Part shown: positions 4,178-61,378 of the stretch, piece by piece
Numbering within the stretch: position 1 is the stretch's first letter
How the letters are laid out: each line of letters begins with the position of its first letter
NCBI GenBank assembly: GCA_964016885.1
Contig: OZ024751.1
Location: 6,572,001 to 6,636,000, forward strand
DNA from: Eledone cirrhosa
Lineage: Eukaryota
Length of the DNA: 64,000 nucleotides
Direction of reading: 5' to 3'
Notes under the pieces: model-generated
The model's database searches: none
Seen by the model: the letters and a program-made list of their open reading frames with translations, nothing else
What the model was told of the DNA's origin: nothing
Position numbers and translations under genes: made by a program

Positions 4178-4214
<37 letters not shown>

Positions 4215-4247
4215 GTGTGTGTATATATATACATATATATATATATT

Positions 4248-4282
<35 letters not shown>

Positions 4283-10836: not shown

Positions 10837-10839
<3 letters not shown>

Positions 10840-11975
10840 TACTTCTCTCAGGTTACTGTGGTTTGTTTGGGTGTTGTTGTTATTCCATTCATTTTTTCTG
10901 TTTAGCCTTGGCCTTCTAAATTCTATTTCGCTGGCCTCTCTAATTTGCCTATATGCTGGGTCATTTCTATGTTTAGATATTATTCTAATTTCTGTGTTGT
11001 CCATGTTACTGTCGTGTTGTTGTCTTGCATGTTCGTATAGTACTGAACCGTTTTTTCGTCCTTTTAGTTCCCCCCAGTGTTGATCCATCCTTTCACCTAT
11101 GCTACGAGCTGTCTCGCCTATGTATGTTGTTGTCATGTGTCTGCAAGTACCCTCTGTACATCTTATGCTATAGACTACGTTTCTAGTTTTACAGTTTATC
11201 CGGGGGTTACTCTACATATGATACATTTCCTATTAGTATAGGGGGTTTTATTAAAAGGGTAGGTTTTTGATGATCAGGGATTTTATGGTGGTTCCTGGCT
11301 TTTCTACCACCTTAATCTTTAAGTGGGTCTTTCTCAGGGCCTTTCTACACTGGTTAGCTAATTTCTTTCCAGGGGTAGCGTCCACAAACATGACACTCTC
11401 GTATCTCTGTTTGTCGTAACATGAGGTGGCTTTCCCTATCTTATGTCTAGTCCTATCTAAGCTATTCCATGATTTGCTCCTGTATAATGGGCAAATTCCT
11501 TTCATGTCCAGTTCTATGAGGGTCTTATACTTCTCTGGAGTTCCTTCGTATACTCTGATTCTGTCTCTTTGGTCGTAGCCAGAGAGCTGCATGCAGTTGA
11601 TGAAGTGTTTGATGTGTCTTTCCATTTCTGTTGGGTTGCACACGCGGGACAAATTCTTCATTACTCGTACCAAATCTGCGATCAGAATATTAAACTTAGC
11701 ACTACTGGGCATTGCTGAGTTTTTGAGTATCAGGTATTTGGAGGCCATGGGTTTAGCATAGTGTGAGTGGAGTATTTGGGCTCTCTCGTCTATAGTGTTA
11801 ATGCAGAGTTCCGTGTCTAATACAGGTAGTCTATTGTTAGCGAGTTTGGAAGGGTAGTCGATAGTTACAGCTATACTCTGGTGTATGGAATTAGCTATCT
11901 GCTGGATGCTTTCCATTGTGTTACCTTCTAAATTAAACTTGTTACTGCTCTCTTGTGGGGATGTCCTTATTACTA
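10837..11975 (-). pseudogene. PLE RT C-terminal half plus GIY-YIG endonuclease (frameshifted)
   Basis: DYPSKLANNRLPVLDTEL, HYAKPM; then NCKTRNVVYSIRC...TYIGETARSIGERMDQH...RQIREASEI...PRLNRKNEW. Confidence 0.9.
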
Positions 11976-12461
11976 GGGGAACTAAAAGGGCGAAAAAAAA
12001 CGGTTCTGTACTATACGAACATGCTAGACAACAACACAACGGTAACATAGACAACATAGAAGTTAGAATAATATCTAAACATAGAAATGACCCAGCAGAT
12101 AGGCAAATCAGAGAGGCCAGCGAAATAGAACTTAGAAGGCCAAGGCTAAACAGAAAAATGAATGGAATATCAACAACACTCAAACAAACAACACTGACCT
12201 AAGAGAAGTATAAATAAATAAATAAATAAATAAATAAATACATACGCAACAAACACATATAAACACACACTAGTAAACTAAGATAGAATACATTAACCAA
12301 TACACAGTTACCCAAACAAGAACACACATCAAACAAAACACTATACACACACGCAAACGCATGCGCAGAGAAAACAAAAAAATAAACAAATAAATAAATA
12401 AATAAACAGACTAAATAAAGATGGCGTAAGCATACAATGCAACGGGAGGAAACATAATAGC

Positions 12462-17854: not shown

Positions 17855-18029
17855 GGTTTGTTGGTTCACCACTGGATAGGACTATCATTCTGTATGGTCA
17901 ATCTCGATGTAATATTATGGAGAGCACTCAACGTAATGCAACTCACCCGTCTTCGTTTGTGTAGTTGGTGGTGCGAGTACAGAGTTAATTATTATAAAAT
18001 AACAGGAGGCTGGACTGGTGTAAATCCCT

Positions 18030-18060
<31 letters not shown>

Positions 18061-18062
<2 letters not shown>

Positions 18063-19198
18063 GGGGGCCAGCATAAAATTAGCCCTTAAGGAACATATGT
18101 TCAAATTTAATGGAAAAACATATGCCCAAGAGGAGGGAGCAGCCATTGGTGTTAGCATTGCAGGCGACATAGCTAACTTATTCATGGTATGGTGGGACAG
18201 TAGACTTAAACTTAAACTTAAAGAACAATTACAAGACCCCTTAACCCTGATAATATACTCCCGCTACGTTGATGATATAAACATCGTAGTTAAAACACCC
18301 CCACTAGAGAACAGTCAGGAATTAGAGAAAAACACAATGGAAAGCATCCAGCACATAGCTAACTCCATCCGCCAGAGTATTAGAGTAAATATAGACTACC
18401 CAAGCAAAAACCCCAACCATCGATTACCTGTACTAGACACAGAGCTCTGGCTAGATACCATTAATAACAAAAATCCAAATCCTCCATTCCCATTATGCCA
18501 AACCCATGACACCCAAATATCGGATCCACCGAAACTCAGCTGTTTCGGACCATACCAAAATCAACATACTGATTGCGGATTTGGTACGGGTGATGAGAAA
18601 CGTGTCCCGCATGTGCAACCCCGAAGAACTAGAGAGACATATACAACACTTCATCCACCGTATGCAGTTCTCTGGTTACAATCAGAGAGATAAAATCAGA
18701 GTGTATAGAGGAGCCAGAACCAAATGGGAAAAAATGGAAAATAATGACACAAATGGGACCTGCCCCTTGTATAGGAGCAAATTTTGGAATAGAATAGAAA
18801 GAACTAGGAATAAGGCTAATAGAATAAATTCATGCAATGATAGCAATAAATACCAGAGTGTAATGTTCATCGATACAACCCCTAGAGGTGAATTAGCTTA
18901 CAAATTTAGAAAGGCCCTAGATAAACATAAACTCAATATTAAAATAATAGAAAGACCAGGTACCTCCATAAAAACACTTATTAGCAAGACATACTCTTTT
19001 CAAAGACCCCCCTGTATAGATAAGAAACATTGCGTCTTTTCTGTGTGTAGATTCTATTTTTATTTCTATAAAATAGAATCTACACACAGAAAAGACGCAA
19101 TGTTTAGACAAATCACAGAGGCAATAAACATAAAAGAATTACAACCAAAATTAAATAGAAAACATGAGTGGAACAGCAACATCACAACTTACAATTAA
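18061..19198 (+). pseudogene. PLE reverse transcriptase with disrupted GIY-YIG
   Basis: QEEGAAIGVSIAGDIANLFM, YSRYVDD, DYPSKNPNHRLPVLDTELW. Frameshift at about 18470; the VVY/YIG region is missing; ends RQITEAINIKELQPKLNRKHEW. Confidence 0.9.
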
Positions 19199-21430: not shown

Positions 21431-22100
21431 GAATGCTATGGTTGATGGAGGCTCGGCTCTGTAAGGTATAGTAAATTTTAACCGCTTATAACAATTGTAA
21501 ATTGTTTAAAATATTAACCAAATTGTAGACAAAAACACCCCCCTCCTCGTGAGAGGGGTTTTCTGCCCGTTATTTGGTCCTTCGGGGTTAAATTACCGCT
21601 TATTGGGGTTTTGTGCCCAATATTTATTTTAAACCAAAAAAACATGGCTACAAAAAAGAATTTTCACAAGTCACTCCCACTCATTCCGTCTTCTTCTTCT
21701 TCAATCGTCACTTTACCAGAGAGAAGATTGTCTCTCTCTCTCCCTTCTCTTTCGCAAGCGACGCCAGTAAAGGAAAAAAATATATAGTTTCTGATAGTTT
21801 CAAAGAGCACGTGCTAAAAACGTGGAACATTCCTCCACGACGACGACAACGACGAGAAATGTGTGCGGTAAATACGGAAAGACATTTCATTCGTCTGACG
21901 TCATGAATAATATCAGTAGCAGCCGTAATAACAGCAGCAGCAGCATAAACAACAACAGCATTAGCAGCAACAACAACAGCAGCAGCAGCAACAACAACAA
22001 CAACCACAGCAAGAGCGGCGGCGGCAGTCGTAGTACCAGCAGCAACAACAAAAGTAACAGCAGCTCTGACGACGACGACAACAACAACAACAACAACAAA

Positions 22101-22530
22101 GAAAAACCAATCCCGTTTGCAGCTATCGCAAAGAACCTGGAAACCATCCTTATAACAAATGAGGAATTACAGGAAGCAAAGAAGATGGTGACGAAAACCG
22201 GACACCGAGCAATCTGCAAGGCAGCCGAACAAATTTTCGAAACCCAACAGCACTGTACGGTCACGTACCTTACAGTAAGCACAAAATCCCGTAGGTTTGA
22301 AAGAGCCACAGAGGCTCAAATACAAAAAGCCTTAGGGTCTGTGTGGCAGCGGAAAACGCATATCACCCGAGGCAAGAAATATGCCACCGTGGACGTGCTT
22401 TTTGCCACACCCCAGGAGGCAAAGGCTCAATCCTTAGTGACCCTAAGGAGCGAGGAAATGGTGTTGGTGCCCTCCTACAGCGGACAAAAAATTGTGAGGG
22501 TCAAACTAACCAAATTCCCACCCACCCCAA
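22101..22530 (+). pseudogene. Probable ORF1 fragment of a Tx1-like LINE
   Basis: Non-repetitive open frame upstream of ORF2 (RGKKYATVDVLFATPQEAK...YSGQKIVRVKLTKFPP, RRM-like); the frame degenerates after about 22530. Confidence 0.5.
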
Positions 22531-22952
22531 CCCACCCCCGTGATGGCCCCTTCTTGGCTGGCCGCGAAAAACAAATGCACAGCAATAAATACACACAACA
22601 AGAAATTAATGACTTACATAATTGAACACACAGACATTTCACAGCACGACTACTTAATACCAGCACGAATCAAAACACCAACGAACATATGACTGGTAAG
22701 AATAGCACAGAAACAATACACAAACATTAAAACGAAATTCCCCAACGCAGTTGGTGATTTCAGAGACCTAGGAGGGACACTCAACCGGAGAGTATATTCG
22801 GATATACTCACAGAAGAGCCGACGACCAGCCGAAGGGACGATTCAACGGTCCCTTCACTAGACGATCAAGTGAAAAGGGATGGAAAAAACCATCCTTCCT
22901 CTGCGAGAAGTAAGGTAAGTCGTCTTTCCCATCTTTTCCACTCCATTGCAAC

Positions 22953-25900
22953 ATGATCTCACTCAGAATAGGCAGTATAAATGCGCGTGGCTTGGGGTCG
23001 TCACGGAAGCAGGGCCACCTGCTCAACGACCTCAGGTTACTAAACATAAATGTAGCGGCTATCAGCGAGACCAGAATCTCCGAAGCACGGGCCTTCGCAC
23101 CGATCTTCGGCGGCTACGCTGTGTACGCGTCTGCCAGCCGTCCTGGATCGGGGGGAGGAGTTGCTGTGCTTTTTCGGAGAGGTTTGGATCTCGCCATACT
23201 GGCCATCTTCCTGGACCCAGACGGTAAGTTGGTAGTGCTGGACGTGACCAGCGGAGAAGGGCAAGATTTCAGGCTAGTGGGCGTCTATGCCCCGACAGGA
23301 GCAGGGCGGCCTGATTTCTTCCGGCGTCTGGAGACCTTTCTAGGAACGACCCGCTCTTTAGTGTTAGTGGGCGACTGGAACGGGATCCTAGATGCACGCT
23401 GGGACTGTGTGGGATTAGCGGATAGGGGAGGAGGATGAAAGAGCCTAACCAACCTGCTCAGGCGTTTTGAACTGTCTGACAGGTACCAATTGGATTTCCG
23501 AATGTGCCATTGTCGACTTGGAAAAATCGCATCGGGTCATCCAGATCATATCTAGATAAAGTATTTTATAGGGAAATAGATAGGTCTAGCATAAGCTGTC
23601 CACAATTCAAGGTAGTCAGCTACACGGACCATAAATTCGTGATCTGTGTGCTTGACTTAGATAGGCTTCATAGACGAGGACCCGGCTACTGGAAGCTAAA
23701 CGCGTCCTTACCAGCGGGCAATGCCTACAGAGACCGGATTAGCGAACTAGTTAAGCCAGCGTTAACGGGGGCCATCGTCAACAATAAGTGGTGGTTTGCT
23801 CTGAAAAGAGCGATTAGAATAGAGTCCATTAGGTTTAGTAAGGCTTTAGCTATAGAGAAAAATAGAGCAGAGGGAGAATTAGTTAGAAAATTAGATGAGG
23901 CGCTTAGCAAAGGCATCGCGATCGACGAACTTGCGGTGAAATTGGCCCTTGACCAATTCTTCAATGCAAAGAACGAAGGCTGCATTGTAAGAACTAGGGT
24001 GCGTGCTTTGAGACACGAGGGGACAAAAGCCGTTCAATGGGCCCGAGTGGCGGAGGCGCGTCGTGGCAACAAAGCCACGATCCGGTCTTTGGGGGACCAC
24101 GACGGGCGCATGCTACTCGATCCCGGGAAAATGTGTGAAGCTTTTCAGCGACACTTCGCTCAAATGTTCGGGGGCAGCGGCGAACCGGATGGAGGGATGG
24201 ACTTTAGTGTCTACCTCGACGGAGCGCCGCGGCTCTCGGCGACTGAGGCGGAGTATTGCGAAAAGCCGATAACAGCCGCTGAAATACGGGAGGCAATGAC
24301 TGGCTGCACAACGGGAAAAACACCTGGTTTGGATGGTCTGCCCTATGAACTTTACGTACAGATGACAGATTTGTTCGGAGGCCTCTTGGGGGACGTCTAC
24401 TGCAACTGGCAACAGAACGGGAGAATTCCCAGCTCTGTGAGCCGAGAAGCGGTGGCGCTGCTGAGAAAGGATCCGAACAAGGGAGATAACATAGATAATT
24501 TCAGGCACATAACTCTGCTAAACACAGAGTTCAAGATTTTGGCTTAGGTGCTAGCACAGAGGTTGGCGCTTGTCGTTGGTGGTCTGGTCGGAGGTCGCAG
24601 ACATGCACCATTCCCGACAGATCCATCCACGACAACCTCCACCTCATGCGATACATCATAGAGAGGGTAGCTAGGGAACCTGGCACGGGTGGGTCCTTGA
24701 TCAATTTAGATCAGTCGAAAGCTTTCGATAGGGTCGACCTTCGTTACCTAGCGGCAGTCCTGAAGGCGGCTGGCTTTGGGCCCGTTTTCAGAGGCTGGAT
24801 CGCTGCCATGCACAGCGACATCTGCTCTGTGGTGAGAGTGAACGGTCACCTTTCAGAACCGTTCAACATCACGCGCTCGGTACCGCCAAGGATGTCCCCT
24901 CTCGTCCCTTCTGTACGTATTGACTCTAGAACCATTACTGCACAAATTGGAGACGTTGAGCGGCGTCCCGCGCAAACTAGGATGCGGAGGATCCGTGTCA
25001 GCATATGCGGACGATGTCACCGTAGTGGTCTCGAACGCCAAACACATCGAGGCGATCGGCACTACACTAAAATAATACGAAGCGGTAACAGGAGCAATGA
25101 TCAACCAGGAAAAGTCAGTGGGCCTGCAGTTTGGCACCTGGAGAGGCAGGTCCATGCCGTCCAACAGCGTCGTCGGGCGCTGGATGGACAGGTTAAATTG
25201 CTAGGGGTCTTGGTCGGTCCGGACCTCCAGACAAACAAAAACTGGGACGAGGTGACGAGCAGGGGGGCTTCTCTCACCTAGAAATAGGCGGAGAGGAAGC
25301 TATCCCTGAAAGGTCGAGCAGAGGTGGCTAACTCGTACATCCCGTCCGTCATCTGCTACCGCCTGACCGTCGTACCTTGTACTAAGCCCCGTCTGACTGC
25401 GCTGGAGCGTTTGCTCTTTCGCTTTTTGTGGAAGGGACGCGCTCCGATGATTAGGCGGTCCATCTGCTGTAAACACCCGCTACGTGGAGGACTGATGATG
25501 CCGTGGCTGATGATGCGCAGACACGCGCTCAGGCTACGACATCTCCACCTCTTCCTCGACGGTGATCAGGTATGGTCGCCGTTTGCTAGACGCGTCTTTC
25601 CCCAGCTCGTCTCCTTGACGGAGCTGCAGTCCTGGGTCAAGCGAAGACCGAGAGGGAGCGCTTGGAGACTGGAATGTCTTCAGGCGCTCTCAGCCCTTGA
25701 CCAATCGGGCAATGTGATCGGTGAAAACTCCACCTCGGCGTTCTATAGAGGATTAGTGGAGGGTAAGTGCGACGACGTTCTTGGGGAAACTCTAGGCGTC
25801 GACGAAAATCAACTAGCCAATCTCTTCGGAAGAAGTTTCGGACCGGGGCCTATGGACAACTTCCAGAAATCCCTGGCATGGCAGTGCTACCGAGGAGCCT

Positions 25901-26366
25901 TGCCAGTTCGGGATAAACTCTACAGGCATGGAGGTGCCGTCAGCCTGGCATGTCCGAGATGCGCGCAGGGCGACGAAACCGTCCTGCACGCACTCGTCCA
26001 GTGTCCGAGAATTGCTGACGTGTGGGTTTATGTCGAGACCTGCTGTCGCGTGTAGGACAGATCCGGCTATCAGCTGAGTCCATCGTGAGGATTTCCCCGC
26101 CCTCTTCCTTTAGCCGGGAAGGGCAGGCAGTTTTTATCTGTCTGGTTGCCATGGCGAAAGAGATAGTATAGTGGACACGTTTGAAAGGGCTGAAGACGAG
26201 CACTTACCTCTTCGGTGATGCCCTGATTGACTTTTTCAAATTTCATTTGAAAAGGAAAATCAGAGTAGAGAGGGAAGTGCTCTCTTCCCAGCATTTTGTT
26301 GAAAGATGGGTGAGAGAAGCAAGAATGGCCCGAGTGAATGGGCCTATTCTGAGTATGTGTCTGTAA
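22953..26366 (+). pseudogene. Tx1-like ORF2: AP endonuclease, reverse transcriptase and zf-RVT, with stops and frameshifts
   Basis: SINARGL, ISET, VYAP, GDWN, SYLD, TDH; GPGYWKLN; TPGLDGLPYE; ITLLNTEFKILA; LDQSKAFDRV; RQGCPLSP and AYADD (shifted frame); CPRC...ETVLHALVQC. Confidence 0.93.
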
Positions 26367-26669: not shown

Positions 26670-27517
26670 ATTACAAGACGGCGGTAACTACGGCGGAGTA
26701 AGTTAGTTGAATTTTTATGAGTTATCGAAAGTTCTATATAATAATTTTTACATCGGTGTGTAGTTAAAGAACCCCTCTGACAAAGGAGGTGGTTTTTTTC
26801 AACTGTATCTCGCGTCCTTGAGGGCTAAATTTGCTTTTATTTATAATCATAAACCCAAAATGTTGTTTAAAAAAAAACATGGCGGACAAAAGAAATTGAC
26901 CACAGAGAGGAACAGCTACTTGTTCGGAGGGTGGAACAGCCAGTTCAACCCAATCACAAGGCAAAGAAAAAAACAAGAGAAACAGCAGCAGCAGCGACAG
27001 TGACAGTGGTAGTGACAACAGCAGCAGCAGCCACTGGAACAGTTGTAGCTGTTGGTTTGAATCACGGTGGCTTAAATCTTGTGAATTTAGTAGCGATCCT
27101 GTGTCTGCAGAAAATTGACCTTTCTATTTTGTTGTTGAGTAGCCTTTTATCGTTCCTAAGGATATACAGTAATTTAAGGTCGCAGAGCCTACAATAGTAC
27201 ATACCGGTACTGTATGCTCTTGCGGCCGACAACCTCGACCAGTTGATATTGTAGTCGATGTTTTTGTCCTTAAGTTCCCAGATTTTCTTGGCGAGGGTTG
27301 TAGAACGAATTAGTGCACGTTTCTTCATCAAATGTCTGTGCACATACCATCTTTTTTTAAACGTACCCGCGGTGGCTCCAATGTAATGCCAAGTGGAGTT
27401 TCCCGAGTTCACCGTGCACATGTACACTAGGCTCGAATCAAGGCACCTGTTCGCCAATGGGCACCTATCTGGTAGGTGACAATTGCAGTTTGAGGTGTTA
27501 TTCCGTACAGTTTCCAC
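26670..27517 (-). mobile_element. Naiad-type PLE 3' fragment (GIY-YIG ORF end 27062-27517 plus 3' UTR)
   Basis: CNC..CPLANRCLDSSLVY...YIGATAGTFKKRW...STTLAKKIWELK...CRLC...LLN...CRH: the Cys-rich Naiad-style endonuclease. Confidence 0.85.
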
Positions 27518-27529
27518 ACTGCTGTTTTG

Positions 27530-32278: not shown

Positions 32279-33421
32279 CATCTAAGTAATCTACGCTAGT
32301 GAAGTTGGTAGCTACTTTTACCCTAAGTACTAACTCATTAAAAATAGAAATTAAACTTTTTTAAAACGGTCCAGGTCGTGACCAATTTTATGTCTTGATA
32401 AGGTCAGATCATCGTCGCCGTATAATCTAATATATCTAAAATAAATAAGCCAACCAAGTCGTATACTTCAGCACTAACGATTGATTCCATTGAGACGTCG
32501 AATTGTTCTGAAGTGGTTGATTTCTTTGTCCAGGCTACTCCATTATTGAAGAGGAGGGTTTTCCGGCAATATGCGATGATCTCACTGTCTAAATTATAGA
32601 TGGTAGTGTAAGTGGTAGCAAAGTCCAACGCTTTGTTCAACAGTGTCACTGAGATTGACGGGTAAAAATCCACAATGTCGAATTGCATGAACTTCGCCTT
32701 TTTAGAGTTGAAAGAGTTAAACCACTTAATGACGGAGCCGCTGTTCCCTACTGGGGCAGGTTGGACTTGGTCCTAATGGTCTTAACAGTGCTCCTAATGA
32801 TAGCCTTACTGACTAGTCCTATCTCCATGCGTGTGGGTTTAGTAGTCTATACGTGGGATTAGAAGTAAAGTCTACCTTGTCATCCTTCAAGGTGAGAAAT
32901 GCCTCACTCTTAGCTAAGCATTGGAGTTTCTTATCTACCTTAAGGTTGGCAGCAAAGTCTTTAGTTTTTGTATTAATGTCGTGGTAGGCCGTGGGGTTAG
33001 CCTTCCTATATTTAGAGCTTATTGCGTTACGTGCCAAGTGGTTGTAAGCAGTGTTGTTGACCTCATAAATATTATTAGTTTTATCAGAAAAAACGAAAGT
33101 GTTATTGGAAGACCTAAATTTCCAAATGTCATTTCTAAGCTTGTTTTGGAAGGTGCTAGAGTGTTTGTGAAAGGAAATCTTAGCGACTAAGTCAAGAAGG
33201 TCCGCTTCTAAAGGAACGAATTCAATTACCTTAGGAGGGTAGGCTCTCGATTTCAGGTTGAATAAGTTATTGGTTCCTGTAATGTTAACATCAAAAGCTA
33301 GGGCTCACCATCTTAAGTGTTTGACGACATCTTCCGCTTTTTGTAGGAGAAACTTTGAGTAAATATGGTTGGAGAGAGTGGGAATATTCTTCAGCGAGTA
33401 ATCCAGTTCGTACAAATCCAT
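32278..33421 (-). pseudogene. Naiad-type PLE ORF, N-terminal domain plus RT (stops and frameshifts)
   Basis: DYSLKNIP..KAEDVVKHLRW*, FQNKLRNDI, FSDKTNNIY, AFLTLKDDKVDF..NPTYRLLNP, QFDIVDFYPSI, FDVSM..AEVYDLVGLFIL, LYGDD, VDYLD. Confidence 0.9.
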
Positions 33422-36068: not shown

Positions 36069-36493
36069 ATATTGTTATACTTTGGGAAGGTCATGTTGCC
36101 AATAAGAAACACACGCACCAGCTATTTCACTTCAATTTATTATAAATTAAGTTTATAAATTTAGGAATTTATAAATTTCCGGTTGGTTGGTTGGTTCCAC
36201 AACCAGACGATTGTTCGTATATTGTCAAAGTTCTTTCGTCACACATTATGTGACCTCTTCAGTGACTGGGGATTCTTTTCTTTGTTTTTGTGCCTCTCCT
36301 TTGTTCTGTCCTACGCCATCTTGTTTTTGTGTGACGAAAGAACTTTGACAATATACGAACAATCGCCTGGTTGTGGAACCAACCAACCGGAAATTTATAA
36401 ATTCCTAAATTTATAAACTTAATCTATAATAAATTGAAGTGAAAGCAGTTGGTGCGTGTGTTTCTTATTGGCAACATGACCCTCCCAAAGTAT

Positions 36494-36500
<7 letters not shown>
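36069..36500. mobile_element. Non-coding tail-out fold-back of the family A2 3' end
   Basis: Arms 36069-36245 and 36328-36500 are reverse complements and match 19420-19592. Confidence 0.9.
36224..36266 (-). ncRNA. Minimal type I HHR, intact core (family A2)
   Basis: GTCA-CTGAAGA-G GTCACA TAATG TGTGAC-GAAA-GAAC-TT^TGAC. Confidence 0.85.
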
Positions 36501-36559
<59 letters not shown>

Positions 36560-36580
36560 GTATATGTATAAATATATATG

Positions 36581-36631
<51 letters not shown>

Positions 36632-36644
36632 GTATATATATATA

Positions 36645-38365
36645 AGGCGGGTAAAAATCCCGAGATCCATGGACGAGTTCTCTCCAGCGGTCTCTGTCCC
36701 TCATTATCGGTGCCATGTCCTGCGTCTCACACAGACCAGTGTCTGTCCTTAGGGCATCAACATACGTTAACCTTGGTCTTCCTCTTCTAGTGTGTCCATG
36801 TAGGGGCTCCCACAGGAGCACTGAGTGCAATGTCAACTCTGGATGTCGGTGAGCATGTCCAGTTAAGCTCAGTCTCCTCTGTGTCACTTTTGAGCTGACA
36901 TTTGGGATGCTCCCACACATCTCTGAGTTTTTCATCCTCAGTGTATACTGATTAATGTTCAGAGCCATCCTCAGCATTCTCGTGTAGCACCCATCCACCA
37001 TCTGAGTGATTTTCTTGGTCAGTGTCCAAGTCTAAGTCCCATACAGCAGCACAGACTCCACTACGGCAATGAAGAGGCGGATTTTCAGGTCTTTACAAAG
37101 GTCCGACTTCCACACGAATCTCAAGCTGTGGCACGCCGCCCAGGCTTTGCTCTTCCTCTCAACCACATCATCTTCCGTATTCCCAATCTTTGCTCCCAAA
37201 TAGAGGTAGCCCTCTACCAATTCTAGCGGCTTCCCGCCTACCTAGGTGATCCCCTTGGCTTCTTAACATTCTCTACCAGATATTTTGTTTTAGTCTCATT
37301 CATTCTCAGCCCCACACTCATCGACACAGTCTCAACCTTCCGCATCAAATCCTCTGCCTCCTTCACTGTATTTGTCACCAAAACTATGTCGTCGGCAAAT
37401 TCAGAATCCGATACCTTTTTCGCCTTAACTCTCCTGCTCTGAGCCGGTGCTACAGTAAAGCCAGAGTCCTGGTGTTTCTCCAGTGCAAGACGCATACAAT
37501 AGTACACTACGATGATAAAAAGTTAGGGAGCAAATGTATCTCCCTGGAGCACTCCAGCCAGTATCTCAAAGAACTCTGTCATCCCATCAGGTGTAATGAC
37601 TTGGGCTTTGGTGTTGGTGTAGAGCAGTGATATCAGGTCCACTATCTTCTTGGGGATTCCATAAGCCTGTAACATCTTCATCAGGCAGTAACAGTCCACA
37701 GAATCAAAGGCCTTCCTAAAGTCAATGAAAACCATGACCGCAGGAAGGCACTTTGCTCTATCTCCCTCTAATATCCTCCTCAGCATCAGGATGTGACTGG
37801 TGGTTGATCTTCCTTCTCTGAAGCCCTTCTGGTTGTCCCTGAGCTTCTTCTCCATCTCAGGTTGGATCCTGTTAAGAATCATCCTGTTGAGGCTCTTTGC
37901 CACAAGTGACGTCAGTGAGATCCCCCTGTAGTTGTTGCTGTTAGAGAGATCTCCCTTCTTTGGCACTGGGACGATGTTACTGATCATCCACTGATTCGGG
38001 TCAACTCCTTTCTCCAGTGCCCGGTTACAGAACCCCAGGATAATATCATCAAAATCACACCTTTTCATCACCTCTGATGCCACTCCATCTTCTCCATGAG
38101 CCTTGCCCTCCTTGATCCTCTTCTTGGCTCTCTGGAGCTCCTCTCTGGTGAAGAGCCCTGTCTCAACATCCAGTTCCTCAAACAGCCGCCTGATCTCCCC
38201 AGTGCTATGGGCTGTGGAGGGTGGCTCTCCTAGTAGGGTCCTAAAATGGTCTAGCCATTTCCTCTTCCTATCCTCGGGATAGGAAGGATCTGACTCGAAC
38301 ACCATCTCTTCCTCCCTGTGATCTCGTTGATGATCATCCAGCTCTCCTTACATCCAGATCTGTCA
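36645..38365 (-). mobile_element. RTE-clade LINE, 5'-truncated RT pseudogene
   Basis: [78 protein letters not shown]; several stops; 3' end in (TA)n. Confidence 0.92.
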
Positions 38366-40876: not shown

Positions 40877-41057
40877 ATTGGCAGTATCGGTAGAGGGTTG
40901 GACGCCATGCTTTCTAGCTTAGTTACGTCCCTTTACACTCTGAGTTCAAATCCCGCCGAGGTTGACTTTGCCTTTCATCCTTACGGGGTCGATAATATAA
41001 AGTACCAGTAATGTACTGGGTAATTGCTGGCCTTGTGCCTAAAGTAGAAACAATTAT
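40877..41057 (+). mobile_element. OK-like SINE
   Basis: A and B boxes, body, (TTA)n on both sides. Confidence 0.88.
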
Positions 41058-41093
41058 TATTATTATTATTATTATTATTACTGTATATATGTA

Positions 41094-41136
<43 letters not shown>

Positions 41137-41138
<2 letters not shown>

Positions 41139-42107
41139 GATTCCTCGACCGGGTCCTTCATCCATTCGCCTTAGTACGAAATCGGCTGCCAGCAGAAACA
41201 ACAGTGGAGAGAGAAGCAACCCTGTCTGACTCCGGAGACAATGTCAAAGAACTCCGTCACACCGGACTCAGTCTGCACGCAGCAACTGGAGTTTTCATAC
41301 AGGGCCTTGAAAGTGGCGATCAATCTTGCAGGAATCCCGTGCAGTTGCGGGACATGGCATTCGCCGACGACATCGCTTTGATCGCTGAAAACAGTGCTGA
41401 TCTGCAGGCCCTAACAACATCTCTACTAGAGAGTGCGGAAAAGATCGGCCTGAGAATCAACACCAAAAAGACCAAGGTCATGAGAACAACCAGCAACACA
41501 GGTCCAGTGATCAGAGTCAACCAGCAGGACCTCGAGGAAGTCGATCATATCACCTATCTGGGCAGCATCCTGAGAAGCAGAGGCGACGCGGAGCTCGACA
41601 TAAGCTGGTCGTCTTCATGCATTAGCACCAAGATCAACTCCGCCTGTACAAGAACATCGTGCTGCCGACAGTGTTTTATGCGAACGAGACCTGGAAGAGT
41701 ATGGCAAAAATAGAGAGATGGGTGAACGCTTTCCACCAGCGGTGCCTGCGAAATATCCTACATGTGTCCTGGCGCGACCGAGTGCGAAACGAGGGCATCC
41801 TGCGGAGAGCCGAGTCGTGGACACTACAGAGAGTGGTCACGGAGCGTCGGTGCCGTCTGGCTGGCCATATTCTGCGTCTGCCAAATGAACGGCATTCGAA
41901 AACAGCGATGAACTGGACTCCGCGTGGTGGTAAACGGAAGCGGGGTTGCCCAAGGAAAACCTAGAGACGAACGTTGCGGAAGTAGCTGATGGCAGCCAAC
42001 ATCACCTGTCACGGTCTCGAAAAAGTTGCCGCTGATCGTGACCGTTGGCGAGTACTTACTGCTCGATGCGCCGAACAGCGCAGAAGAATCTAAGACTAAG
42101 ACTAAGA
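41137..42107 (+). mobile_element. RTE-clade LINE fragment with inverted 5' segment and (CTAAGA)n tail
   Basis: Minus 41338->41137 encodes GIPARLI...GVRQGC.LSPLLF; plus from 41330 encodes MAFADD, YLGS, YANETW, FHQRCLR, GKRKRG.P; tail CTAAGA x3; (TA)n on both flanks. Confidence 0.9.
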
Positions 42108-57705: not shown

Positions 57706-59253
57706 TATATACGTGTGTGTGTCTCTCTCTGTTTCTATCATTGAAGCAACTTATGTACGTAAATACATATATAGAACTTGTGTATTATAATTCATATATC
57801 AATGAATGGTTAAAGAATGCAGTTAGGAAGCATTTAACGTTTAATCCAAATATGGAAATATCTGTTAATCGCTGTTGGTTTTATGGACACATTTCTGTGG
57901 GGATTGTACGTTGTTTTATCTCCTGCTTCCAATCAACATGAGTGGTGATCTTACGGGAAGTTAACCGCGTCGTATATATCGATTTGGATTTCACCATTCT
58001 TTGATTTTATCACCTGTCTGTTATGGCTGAGGTTTATAACGTCAGCAACGTCTTACACCAACACTTAATTAAATGACTAATTATTTAATCAATTAAATAC
58101 TTTAGTAATTAATTAACTAACAATTATTAACTTAATTATTCACTTACAAGCAGAATCTATATATATTATTAGCGACACAAACTTGTAAGAAATGTGTGCT
58201 GCGAAATATATTATCTAAACACTACTGCGAGACAAATCGAAAATAAGATTAAGAAATCATGAAAACCTATGATTTAGTGCATTGCCCCGTGAAAAAAACT
58301 AAACGTTATATCAATAATTCATTTTATTGTTCATTTTACAAATACTTCTGCAAATATTTGTCTCTTGAGAAATAAAGCTACAGCGGCTTAGTCACTAGTT
58401 CGCTTCATTTGCGATGTCGGCAGCAACAAAGATGTTTATGTTATTTTTATATTCGTGTCCTTTGTTTTAAGTTAAATAGAGAGAGACATCGATCGGAGAA
58501 AACAATGAGATCGCAACAAGTCATGTAAGATAAATAAATACACGAAAGACATATTCCAGTAAGGTTTTAGGTTCTTATTGATTTGTTAGTTTTCCTCTTC
58601 GAAAATAAGATATAAAATCCAATAAGAAATGTAATACTGAAATAAATAGAGAGTGAAATAATAAGAAGTACACACAAAAGAATAACAAAAGTAGTCGGAT
58701 TTACTTCATATTTCATTCGCAAATGAAAAGCACCTCTTCAGAATTATTAGATGTGATAGAATTTCCTTTCTCTAGCACCAGTTCACATTCTTTTTTTCTG
58801 TACAAATGTGCATATCTACTCGTACATATTTTATTTGTTAAATATTTATATGATATTTTCAAAACCTAATACGATATAATTAAGTCAAATGTAATGCCAT
58901 GTTGATATATTTTGTATTGTATGTTAATATAACTATTGTCTCTTTTCGTATTGATTATTTCAAACAAAAATATAAATCAAATAAAATGAACAAGATTTGA
59001 TGATTATGATATATATAAATATTTAATTATAGTACATTATAAAAATATTCTCTAATATTTACACAGCTGACATAATCGTATTAAGACAAATACCTCCAGA
59101 CGGATATATATATATATACATATATAAACATGTATATATATACATATATATATACATATATATATACATATATATATATACATATGTATATACATATATA
59201 TATACATATATATGTACATATATATATACATATATATATATACATATATATAT

Positions 59254-59334
<81 letters not shown>

Positions 59335-59522
59335 ATATAGAGAAACACACAGATACATGCGGACACACACATATACATGCATATATCCACATCCATCCTT
59401 CAGGGTTATAAGAGGCTTAGCTCTGTTTCTTGACCGCTGTATCACGTGATTGACTCCCCCTCCGCCTTTTGGGATTCTATCTCGCATCTTACAGACGTGT
59501 TTTTGAAACCCTTAATGAGGTA

Positions 59523-59612
59523 TCCTCTTGATAAGTCGGCAGACCTCACAAATATTATATATCTCTGTGATGTATTGTTTTTGATTATGCCACGAAACTA
59601 CGTAGTCGAGGA
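59523..59612 (+). ncRNA. Type I HHR, U3-A8 variant, 59-nt stem II (family M, copy 1)
   Basis: TCCTC-TTGATAA-GT C GGCA...TCACA..TGTGA...TGCC AC-GAAA-CTACGTAG-TC^GAGGA; predicted cleavage after 59607. Confidence 0.85.
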
Positions 59613-60112
59613 ATTTAGAAGCAGTTTAGGTATGATACATCTTATTACTAATTATATTTAATGTTTCTTCTCTCTTCATAATGTACTTTATAGCGCTGAT
59701 ACTGGTTCAGTCTAATCCATTCGGATTGGTTTGTCCCAGTTATTCATAGAGCAACATCGGTTAAGGTTGGCACCATTAACTCAAGGATGGATGTGGATAT
59801 ATGCATGTATATGTGTGTGTCCGCATGTATCTGTGTGTTTCTCTATATATTGTTTATAACTCCCTTTGGTCGAGTAACCCTTGAAGTGTAGTGACTGCTG
59901 GAAAGCTACCATTACTCATACTTCTTTCCCCCTTAACCACCTCTTCTACGGCCTCGATATAAATACCCCCTCCGCCTCCGTGGTATTTTTTCAGGGTTAT
60001 AAGAGGCTTAGCTCTGTTTCTTGACCGCTGTATCACGTGATTGACCCCCCTCCGCCTTTTGGGATTCTATTTCGCATCTTACAGACGTGTTTTTGAAACC
60101 CTTAATGAGGTA

Positions 60113-60202
60113 TCCTCTTGATAAGTCGGCAGACCTCACACAAATTATATATCTCTGTGATGTATTGTTTTTGATTATGCCACGAAACTACGTAGTCGAG
60201 GA
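60113..60202 (+). ncRNA. Type I HHR, U3-A8 variant (family M, copy 2)
   Basis: Same core and stems as copy 1; predicted cleavage after 60197. Confidence 0.85.
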
Positions 60203-60272
60203 ATTTAGAAGCAGTTTAGGTATGATACATCTTATTCCTAATTATATCTAATGTTTCTTCTCTCTTCATAAT

Positions 60273-60336
<64 letters not shown>

Positions 60337-60407
60337 AATGAAAGGTATAGAAAACATTGTAATGTATATATATGTATATACTGTATATATGTATGTGTTT
60401 GTGTGTA

Positions 60408-60525
<118 letters not shown>

Positions 60526-60526
60526 A

Positions 60527-61378
60527 TAGGTATTAGGATTGGTGCTCTGAAATAGCGATGCATACATGCATGTATGTACAATATATTTGGCAATAAACCG
60601 TATTTAATTAAAAACATTTTGAAGACCTTGCGCAATCATTTTTACCGAAAATCATAGAGGCTGGATTCTTATAGAATTCCAGTAATAATCAGGAACTGAT
60701 TATACAGAGCGATTGCCGGTCCAGTAAATATTAGGTATTAGGAGTGGTGCTCTGAAATAGCGATGTATGTATGAATGTATGTATAGTCTATTTGGCAATG
60801 TACCGTATGTTTACTTAAAAACATGTTGAAGACCTTGCTCTATCATTTTTAAAGTAGTGACTATGTCACTTACTTCTTTTTTTTTACAAAAGAAGGGAGA
60901 GAAGCTGACAGAGTCTGTTTTACAAATCTTAGAAGCTGGATTCTTATAGAATTCCAGTAATAATCAAGGAGATGATTATACAGAGCGTTTGCCGGTCCAG
61001 TAAAAATTAGGTATTAGGATCGGTGCTCTGAAATAGCGATGTATGCATGAATGTATGTATATTAATTAAACATACGTTATATTGCCAAATAAACTATACA
61101 TCGCTATTTCAGAGCACAAATCCTAATACCTAATATTTGCTGGACCGACAATCGCTCTGTATAATCAGTTCCTGATTATTACTGGAATTCTATAAAAATC
61201 CAACTTCTATGATTTTCGGCAAAGGCAAAGCGTGAAACAGATTCTGTCAGCTTCTCTCCCTTCTTTTGCCGAAAAAAAAGAAGTAAATGACATAGTCACT
61301 ACTTTAAAAATGATAGCGCAAGGTCTTCAAAATGTGTTTAATTAAACATACAGTATATTGCCAAATATATTATACATA
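60527..61378. mobile_element. Tandem plus inverted non-coding repeat, family L (about 280-300 bp unit), retrozyme-like
   Basis: Units start at 60527, 60732 and 61008; 61062-61378 is inverted; HHR-like 3' half at 61234-61252; TA on both sides; small fragment at 48359-48384. Confidence 0.8.

What the first reader, a model, noticed from the sequence alone, without database searches (positions are those of the whole stretch)
59330..60277. Candidate intact retrozyme: two U3-A8 hammerheads that would release a 590-nt non-coding RNA
Seen: near-identical ~290-bp direct repeats each hold TCCTC-TTGATAA-[59 nt]-GAAA-CTACGTAG-TC^GAGGA. Stem I is perfect, stem III is palindromic (ACTACGTAGT), and the GUC sites at 59607 and 60197 are exactly 590 nt apart. 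There is no ORF, there is a 70-bp inverted 5' piece, and both flanks are (TA)n. Established: C3-G8 is a Watson-Crick pair in the HHR core, so UUGAUAA is a double compensatory change. Tandem type I HHR retrozymes in animals yield circular RNAs and are thought to be mobilised by PLEs. Inference: this is a young non-autonomous retrozyme whose variant core and long stem II would evade standard CUGANGA searches.
Basis: partly seen in the sequence, partly recalled or inferred. Interest (0 to 1): 0.88.

Follow-up and report, generated by a model that had tools for sequence, protein, structure and literature searches.

The report
Hammerhead retrozyme borrowing a Hydra-Penelope enzyme
This is one of thousands of copies of a small protein-free jumping repeat carrying a predicted self-cutting RNA; its two-armed insertions pair two different fixed ends in every clear case checked, and a stretch shared with a young Penelope-type transposon points to the enzyme that likely copies it, probably from an RNA circle, into both DNA strands.

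Summary
Observation confirmed. The element belongs to a dispersed family: 6,893 exact U3-A8 hammerhead matches in the 3.0-Gb genome, 0 for the control. Every helix covaries across subfamilies, including the palindromic stem III. The 'long stem II' is a 6-bp stem, a 15-bp hairpin and a likely pseudoknot strand. U3-A8 is already described in Penelope-like elements (PLEs; PMC4209133). The '5' inverted piece' is a second arm with its own fixed 3' end. All 56 two-armed insertions with both ends on-site pair a short end (A, about 80 nt past the cut) with a long end (B, about 245 nt), never A/A or B/B. Co-resident Hydra and Neptune PLEs follow the same rule. Both arms share one template lineage, and 5' ends avoid the cut site. 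The 55 nt after B are colinear with the start of an intact young Hydra-clade PLE, not with Neptune, making it the likely helper. Cleavage, circles and mobilisation are untested. Verdict: new variant of a known kind.

The parts
59104..59330 (.). Left (TA)n target
59325..59403 (-). Inverted arm (unit positions 382-460); its 3' end is the long 'B' end, facing the left TA run; 5-nt overlap with the forward arm
59399..60282 (+). Forward arm, 1.5 units, 5'-truncated, ending at the short 'A' end in the right TA run
59399..59692 (+). Direct repeat 1 (partial-tandem pseudo-LTR)
59990..60282 (+). Direct repeat 2
59457..59466 (+). CCCCTCCGCC box (also 59967-59976 and 60047-60056), unchanged in three subfamilies; possible promoter element (inference)
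59516..59521 (+). 5' strand (TGAGGT) of a predicted pseudoknot with ACCTCA at 59543-59548
   Evidence: helix 1: 95% of cells paired; outer pair UA 57, UG 23, CG 7
59523..59612 (+). Hammerhead 1, type I: stem I 59523-59527 with 59608-59612; core U3-A8 59528-59534; stem II 59535-59541 with 59588-59593; hairpin 59549-59583; GAAA 59594; palindromic stem III 59597-59606; predicted cut after 59607
60113..60202 (+). Hammerhead 2, same anatomy; predicted cut after 60197
59608..60197 (+). Predicted 590-nt cut-to-cut monomer or circle (40% GC; circular MFE -152.5 kcal/mol, z -4.5 against 40 shuffles)
59608..59676 (+). Predicted long hairpin just before the A site, formed in all three subfamilies; it can sequester the 3' strand of stem I
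59685..59692 (+). Internal A site (78-85 nt past the cut), where copies end in (TA)n
59778..59839 (+). Predicted long hairpin just before the B site, formed in all three subfamilies
59850..59858 (+). Internal B site (243-251 nt past the cut)
59857..59911 (+). 55 nt after B, colinear with the sequence after the B end and around the start codon of a young Hydra-clade PLE; the ATG is lost here
60277..60528 (.). Right (TA)n target

Best explanation
It is one insertion of a high-copy, non-coding, hammerhead-bearing repeat (an animal non-LTR retrozyme) with Penelope-type ends, likely mobilised by a Hydra-clade Penelope-like element, probably from a 590-nt RNA circle. Shown: family, copy number, TA targeting, two fixed 3' ends, strict A+B pairing, shared template lineage of the two arms, hammerhead covariation, homology to the Hydra start. 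Inferred: two hammerheads on a tandem transcript pair through their palindromic stems III and cut; the monomer is likely closed by a host ligase; the Hydra protein, probably as a dimer, binds the sequence after B, nicks both strands of (TA)n and primes one strand at site A and the other at site B; each cDNA runs round the template for up to about five units; the two 5' ends are joined with short microhomology.
For: 6,893 pattern matches, control 0. Structure: 93.6% of cells paired, 66 cells with double changes, 0 of 500 shuffles as high, and at least one double change in each of five helices. 17 of 17 core and closing positions are unchanged in three subfamilies, against 412 of 606 columns overall. 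Ends: 45 distinct plus 11 two-armed insertions are A+B, with 0 A/A and 0 B/B; Hydra 12 of 12; Neptune 9 of 9 read. The two arms differ at 34 of 2,432 informative-site comparisons in 47 loci. 24 locus-private variants are shared by all copies at 17 of 71 loci, 12 of them across both arms. 1 of 144 arm 5' ends lies within 8 nt of the cut, against 4.1 expected. In 14 of 45 insertions neither arm is contained in the other. Anchored post-B score against young Hydra: 1, 0 and 44 of 1000 shuffles as high for the three subfamilies; against Neptune 261, 379 and 381. A-to-B spacing is 164-171 nt here, 172-174 in Hydra and 68 in Neptune. The Anolis PLE starts at two internal sites, extends both strands, needs RNA at the ORF start and is predicted to be a dimer (PMC11167929).
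Against: There are no cleavage, expression or circle data. The hammerhead region as a whole is not significantly more conserved than the rest of the unit (75/100, Fisher p 0.10). The Hydra family's own hammerhead has a C3-G8 core, while U3-A8 is in the Neptune pLTRs. Homology to Hydra is limited to about 55 nt, is marginal for the oldest subfamily, and was noticed by eye before it was tested; the regions before A, after A and before B are not significant. No true hybrid insertion was found. 105 within-locus differences involve alleles known from other loci, 30 of them between arms. Six of 45 insertions have nearly coincident 5' ends (2.4 expected), as fold-back would give. 'Private' means private among 90 sampled loci out of thousands. 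In the Anolis system, start sites did not differ between strands and hammerhead cutting was dispensable.
Confidence: 0.68

Rival explanations
1. Same family and helper, but the template is uncut linear multimeric RNA. The hammerhead cuts rarely or only to release transcripts, and extra units arise by template jumps rather than by going round a circle.
For: Uncleaved RNA is the dominant substrate of the Anolis PLE in vitro. 8 of 9 Xenopus dimers did not cut. Arms reading through the cut site fit this as well as a circle. 105 within-locus differences involve alleles known elsewhere.
Against: Private variants are shared by up to 7 copies over both arms (L071). 20 of 45 insertions total more than 2 units and 8 have both arms longer than a unit. 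The core is invariant and the stem III palindrome covaries. The circular monomer folds at z -4.5.
Confidence: 0.2
2. The helper is a Neptune PLE (or another family not sampled), and the Hydra-like stretch is a relic or a motif shared among PLEs.
For: Neptune pLTRs carry U3-A8 hammerheads and target (TA)n; their A end lies 82 nt past the cut, against 78-85 here and about 62 in Hydra. Neptune ends often lie near copies. Only a few PLE families were sampled, and 5' ends of other Hydra-type families were not recovered.
Against: No significant similarity to the Neptune family in any of four anchored regions; its A-B spacing is 68 nt against 164-171. The match to Hydra is strongest in the youngest subfamily, and young Hydra copies are 99-100% alike. 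Adjacency is expected from shared TA targets.
Confidence: 0.15
3. The inverted arm is made by fold-back self-priming of the first cDNA (or on an antisense template, as proposed for rotifer PLEs), not by a second priming from the target.
For: It was proposed from junction palindromes (PMC3846280), and it would explain arm identity. 31 of 45 insertions, including this one, have one arm contained in the other, and 6 have coincident 5' ends.
Against: 14 of 45 insertions have neither arm contained in the other. Both arms end in (TA)n at fixed sites. Both strands are extended in vitro.
Confidence: 0.08
4. A local duplication, assembly artefact or inert satellite with a chance hammerhead-like motif.
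For: Rfam does not recognise it.
Against: Thousands of dispersed copies with fixed ends, several subfamilies and compensatory changes.
Confidence: 0.01

Closest known systems
Animal non-LTR retrozymes (Cervera and de la Pena 2020, PMC7229834; Li, Clavereau and Pollet 2026, 10.64898/2026.07.22.740005)
   Same: Non-coding tandem units, one type I hammerhead per unit, GC below 50%, monomers to multimers, co-occurrence with PLEs, predicted dimeric cleavage.
   Different: 590-nt unit (above the 170-400 nt circles of 2020, within the 51-972 bp of 2026); U3-A8 core, branched loop II and predicted pseudoknot instead of the canonical loop contacts; fixed two-end, two-arm insertions in (TA)n; expression not shown.
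PLE hammerheads, including the U3-A8 variant of Schistosoma Cercyon (Cervera and de la Pena 2014, PMC4209133)
   Same: U3-A8 core, G10.1-C11.1 pair, bulge near the base of stem II, short stem I, palindromic stem III.
   Different: Longer palindrome (10 nt); 15-bp hairpin and pseudoknot strand in loop II; located in a non-coding tandem unit rather than a coding element.
Hydra-clade PLEs (Craig et al. 2021, PMC8557442); the 808-codon family in L271-L280
   Same: (TA)n target, partial tandems with an inverted arm, A+B rule, similar A-B spacing, homologous 55 nt after B, long insertion in hammerhead stem II.
   Different: No ORF; different hammerhead core; no detectable similarity elsewhere in the unit.
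Anolis Poseidon element PAc (Frangieh et al. 2024, PMC11167929) and the PLE 'tail' (PMC3846280, PMC8557442)
   Same: Two internal start sites downstream of the hammerhead; the tail is the stretch between them and is present at one end; AT-rich target.
   Different: Tail about 165 nt instead of 30-40. The genomic data here show strict one-of-each pairing, whereas in vitro no strand difference was seen.
Non-autonomous Chlamys PLEs such as MRC1 (PMC8557442)
   Same: Non-coding PLE riders with pLTRs, head-to-tail copies and similarity to autonomous families near the 3' end.
   Different: Most Chlamys lack canonical hammerheads; different host group and PLE clade.

Membership tests
Type I hammerhead ribozyme | Conserved core (3-8 pair, U4, G5, A6, A9, G12, A13, A14, A15.1-U16.1, NUH site) | tested here: met
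   All present with U3-A8; 17 of 17 core and closing positions unchanged in three subfamilies
Type I hammerhead ribozyme | Three helices supported by covariation | tested here: met
   stems I, II and III 96.9, 97.6 and 98.6% paired, each with double changes (cells count sequences, not independent events)
Type I hammerhead ribozyme | Stem I-stem II tertiary contact | tested here: inconclusive
   A 6-bp pseudoknot is possible and 95% paired, with one covarying pair; the same helix could be an inhibitory alternative fold
Type I hammerhead ribozyme | Self-cleavage | not testable with these tools
   Needs in vitro transcription
Animal non-LTR retrozyme | [quoted passage not shown] 2026) | tested here: met
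Animal non-LTR retrozyme | Non-coding, GC below 50%, dispersed multi-copy | tested here: met
   Longest frame 75 codons; GC 40%; 6,893 matches
Animal non-LTR retrozyme | Monomer size | tested here: inconclusive
   590 nt exceeds the 150-450 bp of PMC7229834 but lies within the 51-972 bp of Li et al.
Animal non-LTR retrozyme | No primer-binding site or polypurine tract; larger target duplications when present | not tested
   PBS/PPT not searched; target duplications cannot be read in (TA)n
Animal non-LTR retrozyme | Expressed as linear and circular monomer RNA | not testable with these tools
   No RNA holder listed; not evidence either way
Non-autonomous Penelope-like element | 5' truncation, partial tandem pLTRs, inverted 5'-truncated copy | tested here: met
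Non-autonomous Penelope-like element | [quoted passage not shown] | tested here: met
   56 of 56 A+B; tail about 165 nt rather than 30-40
Non-autonomous Penelope-like element | Sequence similarity to an autonomous family at the 3' end | tested here: met
   55 nt after B against Hydra: 1, 0 and 44 of 1000 shuffles; other regions not significant
Autonomous Penelope-like element | RT plus GIY-YIG ORF | tested here: not met
   No ORF
Hydra clade (for the candidate helper, L273) | RWK, DKT, CxCX5C linker, CxxC and CxH motifs, short single ORF, (TA)n insertion | tested here: met
   Read by eye in the translation against the description in PMC8557442; ends; Pfam found no family
Hydra clade (for the candidate helper, L273) | Placement in an RT phylogeny | not tested
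   No reference PLE proteins were fetched

The most novel reading that the evidence does not exclude
PLE integration is an obligate asymmetric double priming: one protein dimer on one RNA circle primes the two nicked strands of (TA)n from two different hairpin-marked sites. This would explain the PLE tail and inverted pLTR in general. The retrozyme parasitises a specific Hydra-clade enzyme by keeping the enzyme's ORF-start binding motif, and carries a pseudoknotted, dimer-acting U3-A8 hammerhead.
Probability: 0.4. Interest if true: 0.78.

Novelty: new variant of a known kind. Interest (0 to 1): 0.52.

Why it matters
How retrozymes get back into DNA, which enzyme they borrow, and why PLE insertions have a one-sided tail and an inverted repeat are open questions. 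This family supplies a matched pair (a young 590-nt rider and an intact young Hydra-clade ORF), two mapped start sites, a candidate binding motif and a strict quantitative rule (one A, one B), all testable in the existing in vitro PLE assay. It also shows that standard hammerhead searches can miss thousands of copies in one genome.

Tried and rejected
Rfam at E up to 10 gave no hammerhead, only microRNA-like noise from TA repeats. Sequencing runs: no RNA holder listed, three rows of one study holding 0.36-0.42 of the words; not evidence. Read-level support for this locus was not obtained. A short-stem-II relative with the same stem III: 10 matches, all apparent deletion or rearranged variants of the family. 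A C3-G8 version of the family: 0. Pfam PF26215 was not in the library. The A and B ends as degenerate repeats of each other: 23/35 in one subfamily (1 of 60 shuffles as high), not the best self-match in this copy's subfamily; weak. Similarity to Hydra before A looked good by eye but was not significant (65-303 of 1000). L119 (element abutting a Neptune A end) is explained as nested insertion in TA. A foreign 65-nt tail in L004 had no match. L108's 17/18 match to the A end is low-complexity. A 30-nt antisense match to another Hydra-type ORF (E 0.02-0.2) is treated as chance. The 5'-end histogram had a query-edge artefact and was redone. An intron reading was dropped because the AG at the unit boundary is not kept in other subfamilies. 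Not scored as A or B: 10 of 56 and 4 of 15 two-armed insertions with an off-site end, and 4 of 29 old loci that could not be classified; one Hydra locus (L278) whose second end fell 6 nt short of A without a TA flank; one Neptune locus (L169) with an off-site end.

Full report
Observation. The motifs, the 590-nt spacing, the direct repeats (59399-59692, 59990-60282), the lack of an ORF and the TA flanks are as described. The inverted piece is 79 nt and copies 59780-59858. Rfam shows no hammerhead among 73 matches at E up to 10.

Family. The window lies in a 3.0-Gb genome; earlier scan notes call it octopus, which I did not test. A strict pattern for this hammerhead matches 6,893 times, control 0; a C3-G8 version matches 0 times. 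I examined 90 loci: the 30 best DNA hits, 9 further hits, and the remaining 51 loci behind the first 100 listed pattern matches. I added 29 loci of an older subfamily about 78% identical. Subfamilies range from very young (arms differing by 0-0.3%) to old (5-6%); this copy's repeats differ by about 2%.

Ribozyme. On 89 distinct sequences (one per locus, from 118 loci) the proposed structure is 93.6% paired, with 66 doubly changed cells. No shuffle of 500 reached either value, and slid controls gave 34-53% paired. The count of pairs with a double change was not above shuffles (115 of 500), and related sequences inflate cell counts. Stem I goes UA to UG to CG and CG to UG to UA. Stem III stays palindromic through ACTACGTAGT, ACTGCGCAGT and ACTGTACAGT. 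The changed inner positions would close a loop of two bases or none in a monomer, which points to a double hammerhead (inference; the CG-to-TA change could be double CpG decay). The 59-nt spacer is a 6-bp stem II with a bulge, a 15-bp hairpin and a strand that pairs with the 5' flank of stem I. In the hammerhead fold this is a pseudoknot; about 40% of hammerheads are reported to use one (PMC3088659, passages). It has one covarying pair, and the same helix appears in a competing fold 1.2 kcal/mol more stable than the hammerhead fold computed without it. All 17 core and closing positions are unchanged across three subfamily representatives (this copy, one copy from L071, and a majority of the old subfamily), against 412 of 606 columns overall. 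The hammerhead region as a whole is not significantly more conserved (p 0.10). U3-A8 is known in nature (PMC3088659) and in PLE hammerheads (PMC4209133, parts 1-2 of 4 read), and occurs in this genome's Neptune pLTRs.

Insertion anatomy. Copies end at two sites, A (78-85 nt past the cut) and B (243-251 nt), each preceded by a predicted long hairpin in all three subfamilies. Of 91 insertions scored, 56 are two-armed with 3' ends outward: 46 A+B (45 distinct), 0 A/A, 0 B/B, and 10 with an off-site end. The 35 one-armed insertions are 21 A, 13 B and 1 other. Of 29 old loci, 15 are two-armed: 11 A+B and 4 off-site; 10 are one-armed and 4 unclassified. With independent choice, 56 of 56 has probability at most 2^-56 (my arithmetic). 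The same rule holds in two autonomous families: Hydra-type 12 of 12 and Neptune 9 of 9 (read by eye, where one end was B by query design). A one-sided tail is known qualitatively (PMC3846280 passages; PMC8557442 passages), and two start sites are shown for PAc (PMC11167929, parts 1-2 of 4). I found no statement of strict pairing in seven searches of a library that lacks most subscription papers.

Template. 48 of 50 A arms and 36 of 51 B arms run past the cut site, and only 1 of 144 true 5' ends lies within 8 nt of it (4.1 expected). A cleaved linear monomer is therefore not the template. The two arms of an insertion differ at 34 of 2,432 informative-site comparisons, whereas the median other arm differs at 9-74%. 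24 variants private to a locus are shared by all its copies (17 of 71 loci; 12 across both arms, one in 7 copies), alongside 206 private changes in only some copies. Against this, 105 within-locus differences involve alleles known elsewhere. In 14 of 45 insertions neither arm is contained in the other, which fold-back copying cannot give; 6 have coincident 5' ends. Junction overlaps are mostly 0-7 nt. A circle is the simplest reading; uncut multimers with template jumps remain possible.

Helper. I sampled Neptune, Poseidon-like and Hydra-type loci. A young family with an intact 808-codon frame has the Hydra hallmarks listed in PMC8557442; Pfam does not recognise it. Its A and B ends are 172-174 nt apart, against 164-171 here and 68 in Neptune. 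The 55 nt after its B end align colinearly with ours through its start codon. Anchored scores were reached by 1, 0 and 44 of 1000 shuffles for our three subfamilies (2, 0 and 40 against older Hydra), against 261-381 for Neptune. The other three anchored regions were not significant for either helper. I noticed the match by eye first, and 36 comparisons were made. In PAc the protein-binding motif is hypothesised to lie in the first 172 nt of the ORF. A pattern built on this motif plus a Hydra-spaced downstream word returned 45 Hydra starts among 46 matches. Against: Hydra's hammerhead core is C3-G8, Neptune's cut-to-A distance fits better, no hybrid was found, and other Hydra families' 5' ends were not recovered.

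Mechanism and odds. Family assignment about 0.92; double priming at A and B about 0.75; Hydra-clade helper about 0.7; circular template about 0.6; dimeric cleavage about 0.65. All of the biochemistry is inferred.

Comparison. It works like an animal non-LTR retrozyme and meets the operational definition of Li et al. 2026 (parts 1-3 of 5 read; supplements not seen). The link to PLEs is already argued there. PMC7229834 was seen as passages. The element departs in size, core and loop II. Earlier scan notes describe this family and the two-end rule on other DNA. I had reached the rule before reading them, and they are not independent evidence. They prompted the hybrid search; one note on a Hydra hairpin came after my Hydra match and agrees with it.

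Verdict. A real, ordinary-class element with an already described core variant. Its value lies in the insertion rule and the named candidate helper, which make PLE and retrozyme integration directly testable. Interest 0.52.

Noticed in passing
window 60527-61375: Two-armed insertion of a second non-coding family with a unit of about 320 nt. Its relative in L341 has intact U3-A8 hammerheads with stem III ACAGAGCTCTGT; the window copy's core looks decayed.
   Followed up: partly
window 35932 and 2078, minus strand: Canonical C3-G8 type I hammerheads with palindromic ATATATAT stem III, each followed by a short tail ending in (TA)n.
   Followed up: no
window 10837-12198 (-), 17998-19198 (+), 27062-27529 (-), 32404-33304 (-): Broken PLE remnants. 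The last two look Hydra-type; the 17998 family has near-intact relatives with frames of up to 859 codons.
   Followed up: partly
window 21798-26055; 36465-38347; 41048-41713: Decayed L1/Tx1-like and RTE-like retrotransposon frames, named from recalled motifs and not searched.
   Followed up: no
L091 (G000:C1:145870000-145877000): Neptune-type PLE with a 938-codon frame (RVT_1 and GIY-YIG), U3-A8 hammerheads in both pLTRs 4,979 nt apart, and A and B ends 68 nt apart.
   Followed up: yes
L273 about 2560-2670: The young Hydra family's hammerhead has core CCGAAGA (U4C) and an imperfect stem III palindrome, while older copies have CTGATGA and ACAATTGT: the active family seems to tolerate a weakened ribozyme.
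   Followed up: partly
L074: A whole two-armed insertion duplicated 2,554 nt apart, probably a later segmental duplication.
   Followed up: no
L085, L132: Insertions whose two arms start at the same base, forming perfect palindromes at the junction.
   Followed up: partly
L071 about 4205-4265: The junction between the arms holds about seven copies of a 10-nt stretch of the unit, suggesting RT slippage during joining.
   Followed up: no
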